From a virus: a stretch of DNA of 40,697 nucleotides. Positions 1 to 40,697 of the stretch are shown here, in pieces. The notes below the pieces were generated by a model. That model did not search any database. It worked only from the letters and a program-made list of their open reading frames with translations, and had not been told where the DNA came from. Position numbers and translations under genes: made by a program. The stretch lies in the UHGV virus genome UHGV-1333064; one strand, written 5' to 3'. The first letter of the stretch is position 1, and each line of letters starts with the position of its first letter.

Positions 1-121
1 GTAGCGGCAGGAGTCTATGAACACGTTTCAGTGAAACCATTTAAGAAAGTGTTCTAATTTATTAGAAATTTGCACTTAAATCAAAAAGTTACGGACAATT
101 CAACCACCAATCAATAAATTA

Positions 122-156
122 AAGGGCACATTAAAGTACACAATATTTGTGCCCTT
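122..156 (-). terminator. candidate stem-loop downstream of the invertase gene
   Basis: 9-bp inverted repeat AAGGGCACA (122-130) / TGTGCCCTT (148-156) with a 17-nt loop, about 20 nt past the invertase stop; flanks are T-rich on both strands. The large loop makes it weak. Confidence 0.3.
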
Positions 157-175
157 CTCTGTTTCTTTCCCGTTA

Positions 176-724
176 TCAGCTAGCTGGAAACTTTTTATAC
201 AGAGTTGAGAGCCCTACTCCATACGTTTTTGATACGCTTTGTCGTGATTCACCGGTTGCCATCCGCTCCCCCATTTCCCTCCATTGCTCATCCGTGAACT
301 TAGGCCTGCGACCACCAACTCGCCCTTTTGCCCTGGCTACGGCCAGCCCTGCTAAGGTACGTTCGCTATTAAGATCAGATTCATATTGTGCTGCGGAAAG
401 GATGTTACGAAAGTTATAGCGGCCGCTGGCTGTTTTGAGATCCACGCCATCGGTAATACTGCGGAAGTTGATACCCTTTTCCTGTAACTGCTGGAACATC
501 AACAGCGCATGCAGAACGTTGCGGCCTATCCTGTCCAGCTTCCAGACCACCAGTTCATCCCCCGGCTGCATAGTGGCGATCAGCCGTTTTAGAACCGGCC
601 GATTCGATTTCCTCCCGCTGGCATGCTCTTCAAAAATTTTCTCACAACCCGCTGACTTGAGCGCCGTTAGTTGCAATTCAGTGTCCTGGTGGTTTGTTGA
701 TACTCGGGCATAACCGTAAATCAT
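176..724 (-). CDS. serine recombinase, DNA invertase (Hin/Gin/Cin/Pin family)
   Basis: Track ORF 176..883, trimmed to the internal Met of MIYGYARVSTNHQ (ATG 722-724) with AGGAG 7 nt upstream. Resolvase-type N-terminal catalytic Ser motif (YARVST), VWKLDRIGR, and a C-terminal HTH (LSTLYKK), as in DNA invertases. Confidence 0.9.
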   Translation of the reverse strand: MIYGYARVSTNHQDTELQLTALKSAGCEKIFEEHASGRKSNRPVLKRLIATMQPGDELVVWKLDRIGRNVLHALLMFQQLQEKGINFRSITDGVDLKTASGRYNFRNILSAAQYESDLNSERTLAGLAVARAKGRVGGRRPKFTDEQWREMGERMATGESRQSVSKTYGVGLSTLYKKFPAS

Positions 725-28449: not shown

Positions 28450-28785
28450 TTAGGCATCATCCACCTCTGGCTTTTTGAAATTAGCCTCGATGGACTCTCC
28501 TAGGCGCTTTAACCAATCAGCCAGTTTGAGCGCCGCGTCTTCCGGAGTTTTCTGTCCCGGAAAATCAGTGATGATGATGCTGGCTTGATGATTACCAAAC
28601 CCATCTCTGTTTATCACCATTCCCTGCTCAAGCACCGTCTGTTGGTTGCTGTGCTTAACGTAGTAACGAGCCTCAGAGCTTCCAGTGCTGCGCTCTTTGA
28701 CGTAAGAGACAAGCTCCACCTCAGTGGTGATGGTCTTACCACGCTCCGCCTCAAGACGCTGAATTAGCTTAACGAAATCGTTCAT
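28450..28785 (-). CDS. hypothetical protein
   Basis: 111-aa ORF, last gene of a translationally coupled operon (overlaps the upstream gene by 4 nt). Confidence 0.4.
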   Translation of the reverse strand: MNDFVKLIQRLEAERGKTITTEVELVSYVKERSTGSSEARYYVKHSNQQTVLEQGMVINRDGFGNHQASIIITDFPGQKTPEDAALKLADWLKRLGESIEANFKKPEVDDA

Positions 28786-29564
28786 TCGGCCTCCTGCTGC
28801 GGTGCAGCTGCCTGCTCAGCTGCCATAGCCGCATCGATTTGCTCGCGTAATTTAGTCGCGTGATAATCATCCTCTTCATCCGTGATGGTCTGCGACCAGA
28901 AAAGGCTATGGCTTCCGTAAACCATAGGCTCACGAACATCAACGGTTTTCGATACCAGCCAGTCCATGCGGCGTACGTCATCTGGAATCACCGGAGAGTT
29001 GCCACCCTGAACAGTAGGCATATCCGGACCTTTGCGAATCGCCATGGCAAGATCGATTTGGTCGTCGTACAACCAGTCACCTGTTTGCGGATGATTGGCT
29101 TCTGCCAATTGTGCAGCCCACTCCAGGCCGTCTTTGTGTCCTTGCAGATAGTCCAGCGGTAACTCATCACTATTACTTACAGGTTCGGCCTGAAGCATGG
29201 CGGCGCGATAGGCGTTCCAGCCGACAGCTTTTCCGTGTTCAAACGCGCTGTCAAAGTCATCATCAATTTCCATCGCAGCGGGCACAGATACCGGCGCTGG
29301 CGGGGCGGTATAAAACTTCGTCCCCAGCGGAAACAACTTCATCGCTTTTTCTCCCTTAATGATGCGATAAGTTGATTTCCCGCCAAGGTCTACCGTTCCA
29401 TCCATAATAAGGCCGTATCGCTTCTCTGAAACTTCACCAATAGGATCTGCTTCCAGTGATGCCAAAGCAATCCGTGCCACTTCCATTTGTTCGCTACGAG
29501 TAAGCCCGTTTTCAAGCGGATTTTTAATGAACAATTCAATACGTTCTTTGGTAATAGTGCTCAT
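28782..29564 (-). CDS. hypothetical protein (acidic, 260 aa)
   Basis: Long ORF in the coupled operon; no recognisable motif by eye. Confidence 0.45.
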   Translation of the reverse strand: MSTITKERIELFIKNPLENGLTRSEQMEVARIALASLEADPIGEVSEKRYGLIMDGTVDLGGKSTYRIIKGEKAMKLFPLGTKFYTAPPAPVSVPAAMEIDDDFDSAFEHGKAVGWNAYRAAMLQAEPVSNSDELPLDYLQGHKDGLEWAAQLAEANHPQTGDWLYDDQIDLAMAIRKGPDMPTVQGGNSPVIPDDVRRMDWLVSKTVDVREPMVYGSHSLFWSQTITDEEDDYHATKLREQIDAAMAAEQAAAPQQEAE

Positions 29565-29567
29565 GGG

Positions 29568-30002
29568 TTAGTCCTCACCTTTCTGTTGCACTACCGGAAC
29601 CGATAAATCGACGCACCAGGAGATAACGCCGAATTGATCATCGTTCTGCGCTTCACCCCAAACGTAATATTTTGATCCTGGCCGACCCATTGCCGGGTCA
29701 AATACTTCTATGCCGCGTTCTGCCGTTAACGACATCAGAATCTGATGCAGGCCGCCTTTGATGTTCAGTGACGGAACGGTCAGGAAGTAAATAAACCCGT
29801 AAAGCAATTCGGCCTTGCGCTGGCTTCCGTAAAAATACGGGATTTTGTAATAATCCAGCGCGTCGTCGAGCCAGTCTGTTTTGTCGTGGAATTTCTGATG
29901 CCAGCGTTCCACTACCTCATCGACAGGTTGACCGGCAACCATTGCAACGCAGGTAGCCATGCAGGTGTTAAATGTTGGCTGCATTTGATGTTGAAGCATC
30001 AC
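29568..30002 (-). CDS. hypothetical protein with papain/C39-like cysteine peptidase signature (tentative)
   Basis: N-terminal Q..NTCMATCVAMV resembles the catalytic Cys region of C39-type peptidases (Q...CG.AC.AM) and a later GGLHQI could supply the His. By-eye assignment only. Confidence 0.35.
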   Translation of the reverse strand: MMLQHQMQPTFNTCMATCVAMVAGQPVDEVVERWHQKFHDKTDWLDDALDYYKIPYFYGSQRKAELLYGFIYFLTVPSLNIKGGLHQILMSLTAERGIEVFDPAMGRPGSKYYVWGEAQNDDQFGVISWCVDLSVPVVQQKGED

Positions 30003-30712
30003 TCCCCCTTACCGATGCCAGCGGCGCGGTCTATGCGTTCGATTTCAGCCAGAATTAAAGCCCATGCTTTTACCAGGTTGCGACGGCGGGCATTTGGCTT
30101 CCACCATGAAGCATCCCAAGGCCACCCCCACGGCTTGCCACCATTGCGGTTAACAGTTCCTGTTTCGTTTATGTAACAAACCGCCGCCATTGCCAGTTCG
30201 CCGTTGCAGTGCTCGTCATCATGCTCAGGCGTCCATCCCTCAACTGATTGATGGCGTTGACGCTCTGCAATTACTGACTGAACGGCATTGGATAGCGATT
30301 TCACACCCTGCGCACGCACTTCAGCCAGGAAAGCGTCGGTGGCTGGGGTTTTGGCATTCTCCAATAATGCTATTGAATCCTGAGCGTCACAAAGACGTAA
30401 TAGTGCGTCCATTTGCTCGCCATCAGCGTCATAGCTGAATAGACCATGATCATCATGATGTGCTTCCATATTTTCTGAGGCCTGCAGTATTCCAGACTTC
30501 AGCCCAGCATTCTCCACAGCCAGCGCCGCGCACTTGGCCTCAAGGTTATCAATCGTGATTCCAGCAGAACGACACTCCCGCAACGCCGTTTCTAGTTTTG
30601 ATTCAAGTTCACCGAACTTACGGACAAGATATTCAGCGTTTGTTTCGTTAACCTTTAAATCTCGTGGAATGCACTTGCCACGCAGAAAACCTTCCATCTC
30701 AAATAATTTCAT
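29999..30712 (-). CDS. hypothetical protein, Ea22-like (coiled-coil N-terminus, DUF550-like C-terminus)
   Basis: Track ORF trimmed to MKLFEMEGFL (ATGA overlap with the wHTH gene). C-terminal W.PEHDDEHCNGELAMAAVCYI...WPWDASWWKP recalls the Ea22-family C-terminal domain. Confidence 0.45.
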   Translation of the reverse strand: MKLFEMEGFLRGKCIPRDLKVNETNAEYLVRKFGELESKLETALRECRSAGITIDNLEAKCAALAVENAGLKSGILQASENMEAHHDDHGLFSYDADGEQMDALLRLCDAQDSIALLENAKTPATDAFLAEVRAQGVKSLSNAVQSVIAERQRHQSVEGWTPEHDDEHCNGELAMAAVCYINETGTVNRNGGKPWGWPWDASWWKPNARRRNLVKAWALILAEIERIDRAAGIGKGE

Positions 30713-31053
30713 ACCCCTGCCCTCCCCCAAACCATCAATACTCGCTTCATCGCCGCGCTGTTGCGGCACTCCTGGCAGATCACGTTTGCCTCTGTACGCT
30801 GCACCAGCTTCGAATTTCCCTTCGGCATAGCCGGGATTGTTTCTGGTGCGTATTTCATGCCGTAATCGGTCAGCCGATAAAGCCGCTGTCCGTGCTTGCC
30901 TTCGAACTCGATCAAGCCGTCTGCCAGCAGCGTGCTCACCGTTCCGGATATCTTTTTGGTGGTCATGCCGATAAGCCCTGCCAGTTTGGCGTTGTTCAAC
31001 CCTGGGTTGTTGCGCAGGGCTGCCAGCAGTTGCTCACGAATTGTTATGGTCAT
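30709..31053 (-). CDS. winged-helix DNA-binding protein, hypothetical
   Basis: Track ORF trimmed to MTITIREQLLAALRNNPGLNNAKLAGLIGMTTKKISGTV (HTH-like); ATG overlaps the DnaB stop (ATGA). Confidence 0.45.
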   Translation of the reverse strand: MTITIREQLLAALRNNPGLNNAKLAGLIGMTTKKISGTVSTLLADGLIEFEGKHGQRLYRLTDYGMKYAPETIPAMPKGNSKLVQRTEANVICQECRNSAAMKRVLMVWGRAGV

Positions 31054-36732: not shown

Positions 36733-36869
36733 TCAATCATCACCTGCTGCGCGCCGCGCAGAGCAAAGCAGCCATTGCCCTGTTTATCGGTGATGGCGCC
36801 ATGTGGATGGCAGCCTACGACGAAATGAAGGTTGCCATCGGTTATCCGTGGCATAGAAAAACAGCCTAA
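36729..36869 (+). CDS. small hypothetical protein (46 aa), not in the supplied ORF track
   Basis: ATG 36729-36731 overlaps the upstream stop (ATGA); read by eye as MINHHLLRAAQSKAAIALFIGDGAMWMAAYDEMKVAIGYPWHRKTA. Confidence 0.3.
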   Translation: MINHHLLRAAQSKAAIALFIGDGAMWMAAYDEMKVAIGYPWHRKTA

Positions 36870-36939
36870 TTCCCCTATTCAACCGATCGGCCTGGCTAAA
36901 AGCGGGCGGGATCTGCACATCCAAATTTCAGGAGAAACC

Positions 36940-37911
36940 ATGAGCGAAGTAATGGACTTAACTGTCATCGAAATCACGCCGGAGCAGGCGCCAGCGCTTT
37001 ACGTAGCGGGCGGCCTTGACGCTTACCTCGAGCAAATCCGCCAGGCAGTAAACGAAGTGCCGGACCTGTCAACGAAGAAAGGCCGTGACCGTGTCGCCTC
37101 TCTGGCGGCGCAGGTGTCGCGCAGCAAGACGGCAATCGAAAAGCCGGGGCGTGAGTACCTGAAGCGCCTGAAAGAGGCTGTGCGCCCCGCTGAGGCGGAA
37201 ATTAAGCGTTTCGTTGATGCCTGCGACGAGCTACGTGATGCCACCCGCCGCCCACTCACCGAATGGGAAGCCGAGCAGGAGCGCATTAAGGCTGAAGAAG
37301 CCATGAACGCGTTGCACGCCGAAGCGCTGGAAATGAACATCAAGTTCGATCAGGAGTTGGCGGCCAAGTTCGAAGCAGACCACGAAATGGCTCTGCTGAT
37401 GAACAAGGATTTCGACCGTGACCGCGAAGAGCAGCGCCGCCAGGCGGAACAGGCTCAACGTGAGCATGAAGAGCGCATTAAGAGTGAAGCGGCAGAGCAA
37501 GCCCGACGCGATGCCGAAGCGAAGCACAAAGCAGAGATTGAAGCCGCAGCGCGCCGTGAAGCTGAAGAGAAAGCTCGCGCTGAACTGGCGGAGCGCCAGC
37601 GCATTGAAGCGGAACAGCGTGCGGCACGCGAGAAGCAGGAAGCAGAAGCCCGGGCAGAACGCGAAAAAGCCGCGGCAGTGGAAGCTGAGCGCCTGAAGGC
37701 AAAACAGGCCGAAGATGCTCGCCTGGCCGAAGAGAAGCGCCTCGCCGATGAACAGGCAAAGCGCGAAGCTGACGTGAAGCACCGCAAGACGGTCGGCACC
37801 AACATCGTTAACGCGCTCACCAGCCACACCAGCTTAACCCGCGAACAGGCTATCGAAGTGCTCACCGCACTTAAAGACGACCTAATCCCCTGCGCAAAAA
37901 TTCATTACTGA
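36940..37911 (+). CDS. highly charged coiled-coil protein (Ala/Glu/Arg/Lys-rich)
   Basis: Track ORF 36832..37911 trimmed to MSEVMDL (ATG 36940) with AGGAGAAACC upstream. A roughly 170-aa stretch is almost pure A/E/R/K/Q repeats (REAEEKARAELAERQRIEAEQRAAREKQEAEARAEREKAAA). Confidence 0.5.
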   Translation: MSEVMDLTVIEITPEQAPALYVAGGLDAYLEQIRQAVNEVPDLSTKKGRDRVASLAAQVSRSKTAIEKPGREYLKRLKEAVRPAEAEIKRFVDACDELRDATRRPLTEWEAEQERIKAEEAMNALHAEALEMNIKFDQELAAKFEADHEMALLMNKDFDRDREEQRRQAEQAQREHEERIKSEAAEQARRDAEAKHKAEIEAAARREAEEKARAELAERQRIEAEQRAAREKQEAEARAEREKAAAVEAERLKAKQAEDARLAEEKRLADEQAKREADVKHRKTVGTNIVNALTSHTSLTREQAIEVLTALKDDLIPCAKIHY

Positions 37912-37918
37912 GGCAACC

Positions 37919-38200
37919 ATGAACGCATACCTCACTTACGACCGCATCGAAGATCGGCGCTGGGTTGAGCAGCAGCTCACCGACGAGAAGGAGAAGTGGA
38001 TCGACGACCGGGCGAAAGAACTGATCGCCATGTTCCCGAAATATGCTTTGCAAATGAGTAGCCTGTTTCTCCCAAAAGAAGCGCAAATGGCACTAGTCGG
38101 TGAAAAGGCAGAGGAAGCCTATAACGACTATGTCACACGCATCTGTTACGACCGCGCCGAAGAAGAGTGGGATCGCCTTCATCCAACCTGCCCGTTTTAA
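37919..38200 (+). CDS. Gam-like host-nuclease inhibitor (tentative)
   Basis: 93-aa ORF immediately upstream of bet; N-terminus MNAYLTYDRIEDRRWVEQQL resembles the lambda GamS start ([22 protein letters not shown]). Confidence 0.5.
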   Translation: MNAYLTYDRIEDRRWVEQQLTDEKEKWIDDRAKELIAMFPKYALQMSSLFLPKEAQMALVGEKAEEAYNDYVTRICYDRAEEEWDRLHPTCPF

Positions 38201-38217
38201 CTTTGAGGGATTTAACA

Positions 38218-38964
38218 ATGAGTACTGCACTTTCCACCATGGCCGGGAAACTGGCCGCTCGCCTCGGCATGGATGCCGGTACAGACCTGATGAATACGCT
38301 GAAGAACACAGCATTTAAAGGTGGCAACGTCACGGACGAGCAATTTACAGCCCTGCTAATCGTCGCCAACCAGTACGGCCTGAACCCATGGACAAAAGAG
38401 ATTTATGCCTTCCCAGATAAAGGCGGGATTGTCCCGGTCGTCGGCGTTGATGGATGGGCTCGCATTATCAACGAGCATCCTCAGTTTGACGGCATGGAGT
38501 TCTCTTACGACAAGGAGGAAGGCGCGTGTACCTGCAAGATTTACCGCAAAGACCGTAAGCACCCGACCATCGTCACCGAGTACATGGGAGAGTGCAAACG
38601 CAACACTCAGCCATGGCAGTCCCACCCTACCCGCATGCTTCGCCACAAGACGCTGATCCAGTGCGCGCGTCTGGCCTTTGGTTTCGCTGGCATCTTCGAC
38701 CAGGATGAGGCAGAGCGAGTAATTGAAGGAACAACGGCAGAGGTTCATGCGGGCCATGAATCAGATAGCCGCCGCCCGGAACTGATCGCAAAAGGTGAGT
38801 CCGCCGCGCGCCTTGGAACCGTTAAGTATCAGGAGTTCTGGGTGGCGCTGAGCGCCGAAGAGAAACAGGTGATCGGCGCAGTTGAGAAACGACGCATGTA
38901 TGACATGAGTCTTGCTGTCGACAACGCCGAACCTGTCAATGTCGCAGAGACGGAGGCTGAATGA
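38218..38964 (+). CDS. bet: single-strand annealing protein, lambda Bet (Red-beta) family
   Basis: Track ORF trimmed to MSTALSTMAGKLAARLGMD; long stretches parallel lambda Bet (LLIVANQYGLNPWTKEIYAFPDK, GIVPVVGVDGW, QPWQSHPTRMLRHKTLIQCARLAFGFAGI). Confidence 0.9.
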   Translation: MSTALSTMAGKLAARLGMDAGTDLMNTLKNTAFKGGNVTDEQFTALLIVANQYGLNPWTKEIYAFPDKGGIVPVVGVDGWARIINEHPQFDGMEFSYDKEEGACTCKIYRKDRKHPTIVTEYMGECKRNTQPWQSHPTRMLRHKTLIQCARLAFGFAGIFDQDEAERVIEGTTAEVHAGHESDSRRPELIAKGESAARLGTVKYQEFWVALSAEEKQVIGAVEKRRMYDMSLAVDNAEPVNVAETEAE

Positions 38965-39578
38965 TAGAGCAACGCACCCCTGAATGGTTTGCTGCGCGCT
39001 GCGGCAAGGTCACAGCCAGTCGCCTGGCTGATGTCATGGCCCGGACTAAGTCGGGCTACTCCACCAGCCGCCAGAACTACATGGCCGAGCTGATTTGCCA
39101 ACGGCTAACCGGGAAGCTGGAGGAAGGGTTTTCGAATGCCGCGATGATGCGCGGCACTGAACTTGAGCCAGTGGCACGCGAAATGTACGCGCTGAATGAG
39201 TTCAATGCGGCAATCACTGAAGTTGGGCTCATCGATCACCCAACCATACCCGGATTCGCAGCCAGCCCGGACGGACTTGTCAACGACGACGGGCTTATCG
39301 AAATCAAATGCCCCAACACCTGGACCCATCTTGAAACGCTGAAAACTGGTGAGCCAAAGCGCCAGTACATGCTGCAAATGCATGCACAGATGATGTGCAC
39401 CGGGCGGAAATGGTGTGATTTCGTTAGTTTCGATGATCGCCTGCCGCCTGACCTCGCCTATTTCAAGAAGCGGATTCATTTCGATGAAGAGCTGGCGCGC
39501 GAAATCGAATCTGAGGTTAAGAGCTTCCTTGCAGATCTGGAATCGGAAATTCAGAAAATCACAGAGCGTGCAGCATGA
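38961..39578 (+). CDS. phage recombination exonuclease (YqaJ / lambda-exonuclease PD-(D/E)XK family)
   Basis: 205-aa ORF ATGA-coupled to bet; motifs TPEWFAARCGKVTASRLADVM and ASPDGLVNDDGLIEIKCP fit YqaJ-type exonucleases. Confidence 0.8.
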   Translation: MIEQRTPEWFAARCGKVTASRLADVMARTKSGYSTSRQNYMAELICQRLTGKLEEGFSNAAMMRGTELEPVAREMYALNEFNAAITEVGLIDHPTIPGFAASPDGLVNDDGLIEIKCPNTWTHLETLKTGEPKRQYMLQMHAQMMCTGRKWCDFVSFDDRLPPDLAYFKKRIHFDEELAREIESEVKSFLADLESEIQKITERAA

Positions 39579-40003
39579 AACGCACACCATTTTACCGCAG
39601 GCCAGGGCGCACCGGGCAATTCTCCGGCCTTCGTGAGCGCGTTATCTGGATGATTCAGACGCGCGGCCGCCCGGTAACCGGCAGCGAAATCGCTGAGAAG
39701 TTTGGCGTAACGCTCATCGAGTTTAACCGGGTAGCCAACGGTATTACCCGCGGCTCCGGACAGATAGCGCATATCGTTGAGTCGGAAAAGTGGATCAACG
39801 GGGACGGCATCTGCGACCGGACTTTCGACCTGGTCACGAAGCCGAAGGTTGTGACGCCGCAGGGCAAATCGCGCCTGTTCACCCGGCGCGCCATTGAGCA
39901 ATCGCAGGAAGGTAGACGGCAGGAGTGCATAGCCCGTGCCGCCCGCCGTAGCCGCCTGATTGCTCAGGGCCTCTACATCGACGAAATGGAGTCCATCCTA
40001 TGA
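39575..40003 (+). CDS. hypothetical protein
   Basis: 142-aa basic ORF, ATGA-coupled to the exonuclease gene. Confidence 0.45.
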   Translation: MKRTPFYRRPGRTGQFSGLRERVIWMIQTRGRPVTGSEIAEKFGVTLIEFNRVANGITRGSGQIAHIVESEKWINGDGICDRTFDLVTKPKVVTPQGKSRLFTRRAIEQSQEGRRQECIARAARRSRLIAQGLYIDEMESIL

Positions 40004-40158
40004 CTCACGCTCACGACGACATCAGGGTTGGCACACTGCGCCTTCCCTGGCTCAAAGAGAAAAACGGATGGTTGCTGCCGTGGGGTGATGTCGTTACCAA
40101 CCCACTGAAGGCGCAACGACTGGCTGAAGAACTTAACGAAAAGCAGGTGGCAGCATGA
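40000..40158 (+). CDS. small hypothetical protein (52 aa), not in the supplied ORF track
   Basis: ATG 40000-40002 overlaps the upstream stop and its TGA overlaps the methylase ATG (ATGA coupling at both ends). Confidence 0.3.
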   Translation: MTHAHDDIRVGTLRLPWLKEKNGWLLPWGDVVTNPLKAQRLAEELNEKQVAA

Positions 40159-40697
40159 ATTACGGATTTGTAAGTGTTTGCGTTGAGCAATTCAATGAAG
40201 CGGTTAAGCTGCCACCCGCACACAATCCAGCATCACGAATTTGGCAGCGCCCGTTCCTTAAATGGGCTGGCGGCAAATATTCGCTGCTGCCGGAACTGGA
40301 TCGCCTGATCCCCGCAGGGAAACGCCTTATTGAGCCTTTTGTGGGTGGCGGCTCGGTGTTCCTTAACTCAGACAAGCACGAACGCNNNNNNNNNNNNNNN
40401 NNNNNNNNNNNNNNNNNNNNNNATCAGATGCTGGCGGTGGTCCCCGACTCGGTGATCTATGAGGCAATGAAGGCATTCAGGCATCTGAATGATGCCGAAA
40501 ACTACACGGTAATTCGTGAAGCATTCAACGCGCAGCGGCTGGATGCGGTCGAGCGCGCAGCAGCGTTCCTTTACCTCAACCGGCACTGCTTCAACGGGCT
40601 GATCCGTTATAACCTGGACGGTTTTTTTAACGTCGGCTTTGGGAAATATAAAGCGCCATATTTCCCGGAAGAAGAGATCAGGGCATTTAAGCGGAAG
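40155..40697 (+). CDS. dam: DNA adenine methyltransferase, Dam family (interrupted by the N gap, 3' end outside the window)
   Basis: Read by eye: N-terminus ...RPFLKWAGGKYSLLPELDRLIPAGKRLIEPFVGGGSVFLN (KWAGGK and FxGxGS SAM motifs); after the gap FLYLNRHCFNGLIRYNLDGFFNVGFGKYKAPYFPEEE, closely parallel to E. coli Dam. Frame is continuous if the gap is truly 37 nt. Confidence 0.8.
   Translation, partial: MNYGFVSVCVEQFNEAVKLPPAHNPASRIWQRPFLKWAGGKYSLLPELDRLIPAGKRLIEPFVGGGSVFLNSDKHERXXXXXXXXXXXXXQMLAVVPDSVIYEAMKAFRHLNDAENYTVIREAFNAQRLDAVERAAAFLYLNRHCFNGLIRYNLDGFFNVGFGKYKAPYFPEEEIRAFKRK
40386..40422. other. run of 37 N (assembly gap or masked bases) inside the methylase gene
   Basis: Literal n characters in the sequence. 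Confidence 0.98.

What the first reader, a model, noticed from the sequence alone, without database searches (positions are those of the whole stretch)
40155..40697. Phage-encoded Dam-family methyltransferase, missed by the ORF track because of a 37-N gap
Clear Dam motifs on both sides of the gap and translational coupling to the upstream genes. A phage Dam can provide anti-restriction and regulatory functions. The reading frame is continuous only if the gap length is accurate, so the locus needs resequencing.
Basis: seen in the sequence. Interest (0 to 1): 0.4.

Follow-up and report, generated by a model that had tools for sequence, protein, structure and literature searches.

The report
Truncated prophage Dam methylase gene
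The window ends in the first 60% of an ordinary, already-annotated DNA adenine (Dam-family) methyltransferase gene of a phi80-like E. coli prophage; the 37-N run hides a conserved cofactor-binding motif and is 3 bases shorter than the sequence found in every relative.

Summary
An ORF starts at ATG 40155, overlapping the stop of the upstream DUF1317 gene (ATGA). It reads in one frame through the window's only N run (40386-40422, 37 N) and reaches the window end at 40697 without a stop. It matches Pfam PF02086 and passes the NCBIfam Dam-family cut-off.

It is the 5' 60% of a 301-codon gene. Three loci are identical to the window on both flanks of the gap, and two of them have a called Dam gene that runs to the normal stop. 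RefSeq names the 99.7%-identical copy "DNA adenine methylase". The DPPY catalytic motif lies 78 nt past the window end, not in the gap.

Every relative has 40 nt, not 37, under the gap. They encode FLLADVNADLINL plus the first base of a Tyr codon (the cofactor-binding Asp). So the N run is probably an estimate, and the frame holds either way.

The gene is the last early-left gene before DUF4060 and int in a phi80-att prophage, with no partner endonuclease nearby. Its phi80 counterpart, damL, is a frameshifted pseudogene (T8 run). The window has the intact T7 allele.

The 30-residue N-terminal leader looks like a relic of a cytosine-C5/Dam fusion gene common in relatives.

Verdict: real, correctly interpreted, ordinary and already known.

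The parts
40155..40697 (+). 5' part (codons 1-181 of about 301) of an orphan Dam-family N6-adenine DNA methyltransferase gene, cut by the window end
   Evidence: Translation. PF02086 E 2e-29. TIGR00571 139.9 bits, above the 114.85 cut-off. 99.7% identical to the 906-nt 'DNA adenine methylase' gene WP_225373251.1 of E. coli EM18-18-42.
40145..40158 (+). Shine-Dalgarno AGGTGG (40145-40150) and the ATGA start/stop overlap (40155-40158) with the upstream DUF1317 gene
   Evidence: Read directly from the sequence. The same DNA precedes the start of the C5-Dam fusion genes in L067 and L075.
40155..40244 (+). 30-codon N-terminal leader (MNYGFVSVCVEQFNEAVKLPPAHNPASRIW) with no counterpart in E. coli Dam; probably a vestige of the 5' end of a cytosine-C5 methyltransferase gene
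   Evidence: Dam homology starts at residue 31. Relatives begin MRYGSVCSGIEAAS... and continue as PF00145+PF02086 fusions of 610-856 aa. The upstream DNA and first codons are shared.
40254..40280 (+). FLKWAGGKY motif; K36 (40260-40262) corresponds to EcoDam K9, the first-base-pair contact
   Evidence: Alignment to EcoDam. Role of K9 as given in PMC4417163.
40332..40358 (+). Motif I, EPFVGGGSV (FxGxG AdoMet-binding loop)
   Evidence: Read from the sequence. F35, G37 and G39 equivalents are conserved in 118-119 of the 120 homologues.
40386..40422 (.). 37-N run hiding the motif II region. Expected content is the 40-mer TTTCTTCTGGCTGACGTCAACGCTGACCTGATTAACCTGT, which encodes FLLADVNADLINL plus the first base of the next Tyr codon and includes the D54 and N56 equivalents
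   Evidence: Only N run in the window. 17 of 17 close loci carry 40 nt here, including three that are 100% identical to the window on both flanks. All 120 best protein homologues are one residue longer here than the window would be.
40569..40667 (+). DNA-recognition hairpin region, LYLNRHCFNGLIRYNLDGFFNVGFGKYKAPYFP. EcoDam N120, L122, R124 and Y138 equivalents are conserved; Y119 is F and P134 is G
   Evidence: Alignment of 120 homologues: N, L and R invariant, F in 114/120, G in 111/120. Residue roles from PMC4417163.
40622..40628 (+). T7 homopolymer inside the recognition region (GGT TTT TTT AAC), in frame here; the frameshift hotspot of this gene family
   Evidence: phi80 damL has T8 and is annotated as a frameshifted pseudogene. 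The Apirhabdus locus L022 has T6, also a frameshift. 16 natural E. coli genomes have T7 and 59 laboratory phi80-carrying genomes have T8.
37919..40158 (+). Upstream genes on the same strand: gamL (37919-38200), recT/bet (38167-38964), YqaJ-type exonuclease (38961-39578), ORF142 (39575-40003), DUF1317 (40000-40158). From recT onward each overlaps the next by ATGA
   Evidence: ORF coordinates, Pfam, PHROGs. The same order is seen in nine independent contigs.
36..52 (.). phi80-type att core (ACCATTTAAGAAAGTGT, 16 of 17 matching phi80 attP). It marks the other end of the prophage, so the window runs from one att junction to the middle of dam
   Evidence: blastn of window 36-321 against phi80 attP/pinL, 99% identity. 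Alignment. phi80 attP annotation.

Best explanation
Window 40155-40697 is the first 60% of an intact-type orphan Dam-family (D12 class) N6-adenine DNA methyltransferase gene. It belongs to a phi80-like lambdoid prophage of E. coli or a close relative.

Shown here:
- Family membership.
- An in-frame reading through the gap.
- Position as the last gene of the early-left gam-recT-exo-orf142-DUF1317 string, with ATGA overlaps from recT onward.
- In relatives, the gene is followed by DUF4060, sometimes a small xis-like ORF, and then int and the att site.
- No endonuclease gene nearby.
- The in-frame T7 allele.

Inferred:
- The gene is transcribed with the early-left operon after induction or infection and is silent in the lysogen.
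- The enzyme transfers a methyl group from AdoMet to the adenine of GATC on replicating phage DNA. This tops up the limiting host Dam, so progeny DNA is fully methylated and resists GATC-cutting, methylation-sensitive endonucleases in the next host. It may also alter Dam-dependent processes of host or phage.
- The 37-N run is an estimated assembly gap standing for 40 nt that encode the AdoMet-binding Asp motif.
- The missing 3' 40% of the gene, with DPPY, is lost to a contig or window end rather than to a deletion.
For: Family: PF02086 and TIGR00571 above their cut-offs for the fragment. The full-length 99.7%-identical homologue scores 195 and 264.7 bits. It aligns to EcoDam structures over residues 31-296 at E 1e-67, with 46% identity.

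Intactness: 102 of 105 related loci have DPPY in the same open frame as the N-terminus. Three loci are 100% identical to the window on both flanks of the gap and have 40 in-frame nt there; two of them, L132 and L133, have a called Dam gene that runs to the normal stop. The window has the T7 allele found in all 16 natural E. coli carriers.

Context: RecT, YqaJ exonuclease, GamL and DUF1317 lie upstream with 4-nt overlaps. Synteny is identical in nine contigs and ends in DUF4060 and integrase. The phi80 att core sits at window 36-52. No sigma-70-like promoter was found between the repressor gene and dam. No other methyltransferase or endonuclease was found in the early regions.

Specificity: K9, N120, L122, R124 and Y138 equivalents are conserved, with roles as given in PMC4417163. 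Prophage Dam homologues have been reported silent in lysogens (PMC4659465), and a prophage Dam homologue, M.EcoGV, is listed with GATC specificity (PMC6602927).
Against: Two of the three cofactor/catalytic motifs cannot be seen in this window. Motif II is under the Ns and DPPY is beyond the end.

If the 37 N were an exact mask, the protein would lack one residue in a segment whose length is invariant in 120 homologues.

Two DNA-contact positions differ from EcoDam: Y119 is F and P134 is G.

I found no member of this particular clade with an experimentally determined site. The phi80 copy is a pseudogene.

Expression timing is inferred from gene order only.
Confidence: 0.85

Rival explanations
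1. The copy in this genome is a dead gene. Either the hidden stretch carries a frameshift, a stop or a one-codon deletion in the AdoMet-binding motif, or the gene is truly truncated near 40697.
For: The N run is 37 nt whereas all relatives have 40. The gene family does decay by frameshift, as in phi80 T8 and Apirhabdus T6. Nothing after codon 181 can be seen.
Against: Both flanks (231 and 275 nt) are 100% identical to three loci that carry 40 in-frame nt, and two of those have a called Dam gene that runs to the normal stop. The known hotspot is in frame here. 102 of 105 relatives are intact. A gap that lies 275 nt from the end of the sequence looks like an assembly artefact.
Confidence: 0.07
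2. The enzyme is active, but its specificity is relaxed or differs from GATC, because the clade carries G at the EcoDam P134 position and F at Y119, both of which touch the DNA.
For: 111 of 120 clade members have G and 114 of 120 have F at these positions. In EcoDam, P134 with L122 contacts the third base pair and Y119 intercalates (PMC4417163). PMC13449921 relays that deleting phi80 damL altered a BamHI digest pattern, and to my knowledge plain GATC adenine methylation does not block BamHI. PMC4659465 states that prophage methyltransferases are often promiscuous.
Against: R124, L122, N120, K9 and Y138 equivalents are invariant. From my recollection of its sequence (not checked here), T4 Dam, a proven GATC enzyme, has Phe at the intercalating position. 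The BamHI observation is second-hand, concerns a frameshifted allele, and could simply reflect the changed restriction map of the deletion construct.
Confidence: 0.1
3. It is the host's housekeeping dam gene rather than a phage gene.
For: It belongs to the Dam family, and the best solved-structure match is E. coli Dam.
Against: The full-length homologue scores 271.6 bits against the host-Dam equivalog NF008152, whose cut-off is 441. It is only 46% identical to EcoDam. It lies between phage recombination genes and the integrase/att site. Only 106 of 5426 complete E. coli genomes matched the 1123-bp query covering ORF142, DUF1317 and the dam fragment.
Confidence: 0.01

Closest known systems
damL of phage phi80/Lula (JX871397, PHI80_34)
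   Same: It sits in the same slot, after exo, a hypothetical gene and DUF1317, and before a small ORF, xis and int. It has the same att core type. It is 88% identical in nucleotides and about 92% in amino acids, with the same recognition-loop residues.
   Different: phi80 has T8 where the window has T7. Its reading frame therefore stops at TAA straight after the run, and it is annotated as a pseudogene. Its N-terminal leader is 21 nt shorter and diverged.
RefSeq WP_225373251.1 'DNA adenine methylase' in natural E. coli prophages (for example EM18-18-42, NCTC9040)
   Same: The 1123-bp query region (ORF142, DUF1317 and the dam fragment) is 99.5-99.7% identical in nucleotides. Neighbours, start codon and T7 run are the same.
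   Different: These copies are complete (301 aa), with 40 nt where the window has 37 N, and DPPY at residues 209-212.
E. coli Dam (EcoDam, PDB 2G1P/4GBE), NCBIfam NF008152
   Same: D12-class fold. Motifs FLKWAGGKY, FxGxG, DxN and DPPY. The recognition hairpin has N120, L122, R124 and Y138.
   Different: 46% identity, below the equivalog cut-off (271.6 against 441). A 30-residue N-terminal leader. Y119 is F and P134 is G. The gene is prophage-borne, not chromosomal housekeeping.
Cytosine-C5 / Dam fusion methyltransferases of enterobacterial prophages (phrog_116; for example IMGVR_UViG_2751185922_000002, locus L067:1276-3843, 856 aa)
   Same: The C-terminal Dam domain is 95-97% identical. The upstream DUF1317 gene, Shine-Dalgarno, ATGA start and first codons are the same DNA.
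   Different: The window gene lacks the 350-600-residue PF00145 domain and keeps only about 9 recognisable leader codons.
M.EcoVT2Dam of Stx2 phage VT2-Sakai (orf32)
   Same: It is a lambdoid-prophage orphan adenine methyltransferase reported to act on GATC (PMC6602927). In one mosaic relative (L134), a protein of its family fills the very slot that dam occupies here.
   Different: It belongs to an unrelated family (PF05869, 175 aa) and lies in the nin region.
T4 Dam and DpnM (PDB 1YF3, 2DPM)
   Same: Same D12 family; E 3e-17 and 4e-48 respectively. T4 Dam is the classic phage-encoded orphan Dam (own knowledge).
   Different: Much more distant in sequence. T4 Dam comes from a virulent phage, and DpnM belongs to a restriction-modification system.

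Membership tests
Dam family / D12-class N6-adenine DNA methyltransferase (TIGR00571, PF02086) | Profile score above the curated cut-off | tested here: met
   Window fragment: TIGR00571 139.9 bits against 114.85, and PF02086 103.4 against 22. Full-length homologue: 264.7 and 195.1 bits.
Dam family / D12-class N6-adenine DNA methyltransferase (TIGR00571, PF02086) | Motif I, the FxGxG AdoMet-binding loop, and the N-terminal KWAGGK motif | tested here: met
   EPFVGGGSV at 40332-40358 and FLKWAGGKY at 40254-40280.
Dam family / D12-class N6-adenine DNA methyltransferase (TIGR00571, PF02086) | Motif II acidic residue (EcoDam D54 in LADIN) | tested here: inconclusive
   Hidden by the N run at 40386-40422. 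It is present as LLADVN in all 17 close loci, including three with flanks identical to the window, and D is present in 120 of 120 homologues.
Dam family / D12-class N6-adenine DNA methyltransferase (TIGR00571, PF02086) | Catalytic motif IV, DPPY | tested here: inconclusive
   Not in the window: it would start 78 nt past position 40697. It is present at residues 209-212 of the 99.7%-identical gene and lies in the same open frame in 102 of 105 related loci.
Dam family / D12-class N6-adenine DNA methyltransferase (TIGR00571, PF02086) | GATC-recognition residues of EcoDam (K9, Y119, N120, L122, R124, P134, Y138) | tested here: inconclusive
   K, N, L, R and Y138 are conserved. Y119 is F and P134 is G, as in most of the clade. 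Roles are from PMC4417163.
Dam family / D12-class N6-adenine DNA methyltransferase (TIGR00571, PF02086) | Methylation of the adenine of GATC | not testable with these tools
   Needs expression in a dam-negative host with DpnI/MboI digestion or a methylome.
Housekeeping Dam orthologue (NCBIfam NF008152 equivalog) | Score at or above the equivalog cut-off of 441 bits | tested here: not met
   149.2 bits for the fragment and 271.6 bits for the full-length homologue.
Orphan (solitary) phage methyltransferase | No cognate restriction endonuclease gene next to it; located in a phage genome | tested here: met
   The neighbours are DUF1317 upstream and, in relatives, DUF4060, a xis-like ORF and int downstream. 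Nothing resembling an endonuclease of a restriction system was found in the early regions. The prophage att core is at window 36-52.
Bifunctional cytosine-C5 + Dam fusion methyltransferase (phrog_116 type) | PF00145 domain N-terminal to the Dam domain in one ORF | tested here: not met
   Only PF02086 is detected. The leader is 30 residues long, whereas the fusions have 350-600 extra residues.
Phage 'Dam' family PF05869 (M.EcoVT2Dam type) | Match to PF05869 | tested here: not met
   No PF05869 hit for the window protein. VT2-Sakai orf32 and the L134 protein do match it.

The most novel reading that the evidence does not exclude
The homopolymeric T-run inside the DNA-recognition region (T7 here) might be more than a decay hotspot. 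The phi80 T8 allele ends at TAA immediately after the run (UUU UAA), a layout that could allow +1 ribosomal or transcriptional slippage to restore DamL. That would fit the second-hand report that deleting the 'pseudogene' changed the restriction pattern of phi80 DNA. If so, this prophage Dam clade would carry a slippage-controlled methyltransferase whose specificity may be wider than GATC (P134 is G and Y119 is F).
Probability: 0.05. Interest if true: 0.4.

Novelty: already known. Interest (0 to 1): 0.08.

Why it matters
It matters little beyond correct annotation. The window's prophage carries an ordinary orphan Dam gene that an annotation pipeline would drop, because the gene runs off the contig and contains Ns. 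It should be recorded as a partial CDS, not as an absent gene or a pseudogene.

A practical point for assembly curation: the N run is not length-accurate (37 against 40), and the conserved dam segment is a plausible repeat-induced break point.

The side observations are small additions to what is known of phi80-like prophages and do not change the picture. They are the Dam-only derivative of a C5-Dam fusion, the T-run frameshift hotspot, and the alternative PF05869 methyltransferase in the same slot.

Tried and rejected
1. Phase variation at the T-run. I counted alleles in complete E. coli genomes. 16 of 16 natural carriers are T7, and 59 of 59 T8 carriers are laboratory phi80 or phi80dlacZ strains, i.e. 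one lineage that has stayed stable for decades. So there is no sign of switching; the run is only a hotspot (one further T6 frameshift, in Apirhabdus).

2. Finding the window's own contig, to read the rest of the gene. The genome contigs and IMG/VR scans returned only complete relatives. The exact-protein look-up gave nine contigs: eight carry a complete D12 Dam gene and one (L134) has a PF05869 methyltransferase in that slot. None is demonstrably the source.

3. Rotman et al. 2012 (PMC3510586), the phi80 damL work, and the review of phage orphan methyltransferases (PMC3837797) are not held. I have only a second-hand sentence from PMC13449921.

4. I expected M.EcoVT2Dam to be the closest characterised relative. 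It belongs to the unrelated PF05869 family.

5. A search for a dedicated promoter upstream of dam found nothing. The terminator-like hairpin called at 40604-40621 is simply the T-run with a 5-pair stem, and the number of such calls is at shuffle level (9 against 7.5).

6. A search for a partner endonuclease or a second methyltransferase in the early-right region found none.

7. GATC avoidance: none by base composition (158 against 157.6). The Markov O/E of 0.70 is no lower than for other 4-bp palindromes.

8. Structure prediction was not run, because sequence evidence already places the protein on solved Dam structures.

Full report
**Observation**

The sequence at 40155-40697 was read directly.
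- An ATG at 40155 overlaps the TGA of the preceding 52-codon ORF (40000-40158), forming ATGA. It is preceded by AGGTGG at 40145-40150.
- The only N run in the 40,697-base window is 40386-40422, exactly 37 N.
- Translation from 40155 gives 181 codons without a stop up to the last base of the window. The frame before the gap (last full codon 40383-40385) is the same as after it (first full codon 40425-40427).

**Family**

- The fragment, X residues included, matches Pfam PF02086 (D12-class N6-adenine methyltransferase, E 2e-29).
- It scores 139.9 bits on NCBIfam TIGR00571 "Dam family", above the 114.85 cut-off.
- A 99.7%-identical copy in E. coli EM18-18-42 is a 906-nt gene (301 aa) that RefSeq names "DNA adenine methylase", WP_225373251.1.
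- That full-length protein scores 264.7 bits on TIGR00571. It scores only 271.6 on the host-Dam equivalog NF008152, whose cut-off is 441.
- It aligns over residues 31-296 with solved E. coli Dam structures (E about 1e-67), at 46% identity.
- DPPY is at residues 209-212, which is 78 nt beyond the window end. It cannot be in the gap.

**The gap**

- In EM18-18-42 and phi80 the window's 37 N correspond to 40 nt. The same 3-nt excess shows in the match lengths for phages Omnitron and SEN34.
- Of 17 close loci that share the gap edges, all have 40 nt. Three of them are 100% identical to the window over the 231 nt before and the 275 nt after the gap: L132 (GCA_052258005.1), L133 (GCA_013056665.1) and L052 (IMGVR_UViG_2636415959_000003). 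All three carry TTTCTTCTGGCTGACGTCAACGCTGACCTGATTAACCTGT. This encodes FLLADVNADLINL plus the first base of the next Tyr codon, and includes the equivalents of EcoDam D54 and N56.
- All 120 best protein homologues have the same length in this segment, one residue more than the window would have if 37 were exact. In 99 of 102 loci where it could be measured, the motif spacing is 14 residues.
- I conclude that the N run is an estimated gap, 3 nt short, and that the frame is kept by coincidence of 40-37=3. The alternative, an exact mask over a unique one-codon deletion in the cofactor motif, cannot be excluded but is unlikely.
- The gap lies 275 nt from the end of the sequence. The stretch before it is identical even among otherwise diverged alleles (for example L136: 0 mismatches before the gap, 13 after). 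Some genomes carry two copies. A repeat-induced assembly break is therefore a reasonable inference, though not shown.

**Context**

- Upstream on the same strand are GamL (37919-38200), RecT/Bet (38167-38964), a YqaJ-type exonuclease (38961-39578), a 142-aa protein of unknown function (39575-40003) and DUF1317 (40000-40158). From recT onward each overlaps the next by 4 nt.
- Nine independent contigs that encode the identical 142-aa protein show the same order: kil, orf323, gamL, recT, exo, orf142, DUF1317. Eight of them continue with Dam, DUF4060, sometimes a small xis-like ORF, and then the integrase on the other strand. EM18-18-42 has the same layout, with the integrase next to kch.
- Window 36-321 matches the phi80 attP core and the pinL side at 99%. 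The core-like sequence ACCATTTAAGAAAGTGT is at 36-52. The window thus runs from one att junction across the whole prophage to the middle of dam. It lacks the 3' 360 nt of dam, DUF4060, xis and int.
- The rest of the window is a standard mosaic lambdoid genome: Q antiterminator, RusA, NinB, DnaB-type helicase, a YdaT-toxin-family protein and a LexA-type repressor.
- No restriction endonuclease or second methyltransferase was found near dam or in the early-right region. No sigma-70-like promoter was found between the repressor gene and dam. There are no tRNA genes.
- The gene is therefore an orphan methyltransferase at the distal end of the early-left operon. Expression only after induction is inferred from this layout. 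It agrees with a report that a prophage Dam homologue is not transcribed in a lysogen (PMC4659465).

**Specificity**

- Against EcoDam, the equivalents of K9, N120, L122, R124 and Y138 are conserved in the window, and K9, N120, L122 and R124 in all aligned members of the 120 homologues (3 lack the N-terminus). Y119 is F (114 of 120) and P134 is G (111 of 120).
- In EcoDam, R124 reads the fourth base pair, L122 and P134 touch the third, Y119 intercalates, and K9 and Y138 read the first (PMC4417163).
- From my own recollection of its sequence, T4 Dam has Phe at the intercalating position. This is a lead, not a test.
- GATC specificity is therefore likely but not shown. I found no experimentally characterised member of this clade.
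- The characterised Stx-phage enzyme M.EcoVT2Dam belongs to the unrelated family PF05869.

**The T-run**

- phi80's counterpart, damL, is annotated as a pseudogene [quoted passage not shown]. The alignment places the frameshift in a T-run: T8 in phi80, T7 in the window (40622-40628) and in EM18.
- Of 75 complete E. coli genomes that carry this segment, 16 have T7 and 59 have T8. Every T7 carrier listed is a natural isolate. The T8 carriers listed are laboratory K-12 derivatives with phi80 or phi80dlacZ (one, TSW4848-W1, has an environmental source note).
- Among 105 related loci, the only frameshifts are at this run: phi80 T8 and Apirhabdus T6.
- The run is thus a mutational hotspot, but there is no evidence of switching, and the window carries the intact allele.
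- PMC13449921 relays that deleting phi80 damL altered a BamHI digest pattern. I could not read the original paper. This is the only hint of something unusual, and it may be trivial.

**The N-terminal leader**

- Dam homology starts at residue 31.
- About 40 of the 105 related loci encode one long ORF of 610-856 aa that begins MRYGSVCSGIEAAS. It combines PF00145 (cytosine-C5 methylase) with PF02086. PHROG 116, the best PHROG match, is 779 positions long, and Dam matches positions 510-778.
- The DNA upstream of the start (DUF1317 3' end, Shine-Dalgarno, ATGA) and the first codons are the same in the window and in these fusion genes.
- The window gene (MNYGFVSVC..., shared with 15 loci) and phi80 damL (MRYGSVCSGAAAM...) therefore look like Dam-only deletion derivatives of the fusion. 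The direction of this change is inferred.

**Verdict**

It is an ordinary feature that is already annotated in public genomes. A tblastn search with this protein finds matches in 1122 of 50,697 phage records. Its near-identical full-length form is named in RefSeq, and its phi80 counterpart was described in 2012. Interest is low.

Noticed in passing
window 40622-40628; L002 (phi80) about 2900; L022: The T7 run in the dam recognition region is the family's frameshift hotspot. phi80 damL has T8 and its frame stops at TAA right after the run. The Apirhabdus apintestini copy has T6. All 16 natural E. coli carriers have T7 and all 59 laboratory phi80 strains have T8.
   Followed up: yes
window 40155-40244; L067:1276-3843, L075, L009 and others: The 30-residue leader of the window's Dam shares its start, Shine-Dalgarno and first codons with 610-856-aa cytosine-C5 (PF00145) + Dam (PF02086) fusion genes, which occur in about 40 of 105 related prophage loci. 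The window gene looks like a Dam-only deletion derivative of such a fusion.
   Followed up: yes
window 1-321: A phi80-type att core (ACCATTTAAGAAAGTGT, 36-52) lies 35 nt from the window start and is followed by 99% identity to the pinL side of phi80 attP. The window therefore begins almost exactly at a prophage junction and spans nearly the whole prophage.
   Followed up: partly
whole window: GGATCC (the BamHI site) is absent, against 9.5-10.9 expected. It is the most depleted 6-bp palindrome. GGGCCC is also absent. GATC itself is at the count expected from base composition (158).
   Followed up: partly
L134:3799-4344 (Logan SRR14868279_14): In one mosaic relative with identical recT-exo-orf142-DUF1317 genes, the slot downstream of DUF1317 (after a small 75-aa ORF) holds a 182-aa PF05869 'Dam' (M.EcoVT2Dam type) instead of the D12 Dam. 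Unrelated adenine methyltransferases are thus exchanged at the same position.
   Followed up: partly
window 28453-30769, minus strand: Four consecutive ORFs (111, 260, 144 and 256 aa) between ninB and the DnaB-type helicase have no Pfam match.
   Followed up: no
L004 (Pantoea stewartii ATCC 8199 chromosome), L013 (Vagococcus sp. WN89Y contig): A 97%-identical copy of this E. coli-type prophage dam lies in a Pantoea stewartii complete genome. A 77%-identical enterobacterial-type copy sits in a contig labelled Vagococcus (a Firmicute). This suggests either wide transfer or contamination/mislabelling.
   Followed up: no
window 36832-37911: A 359-aa ORF (PHROG 1376, function unknown) has a long Glu/Ala/Arg/Lys-rich low-complexity centre. 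It sits between the immunity region and gamL and is conserved as 'orf323' in all related contigs.
   Followed up: no
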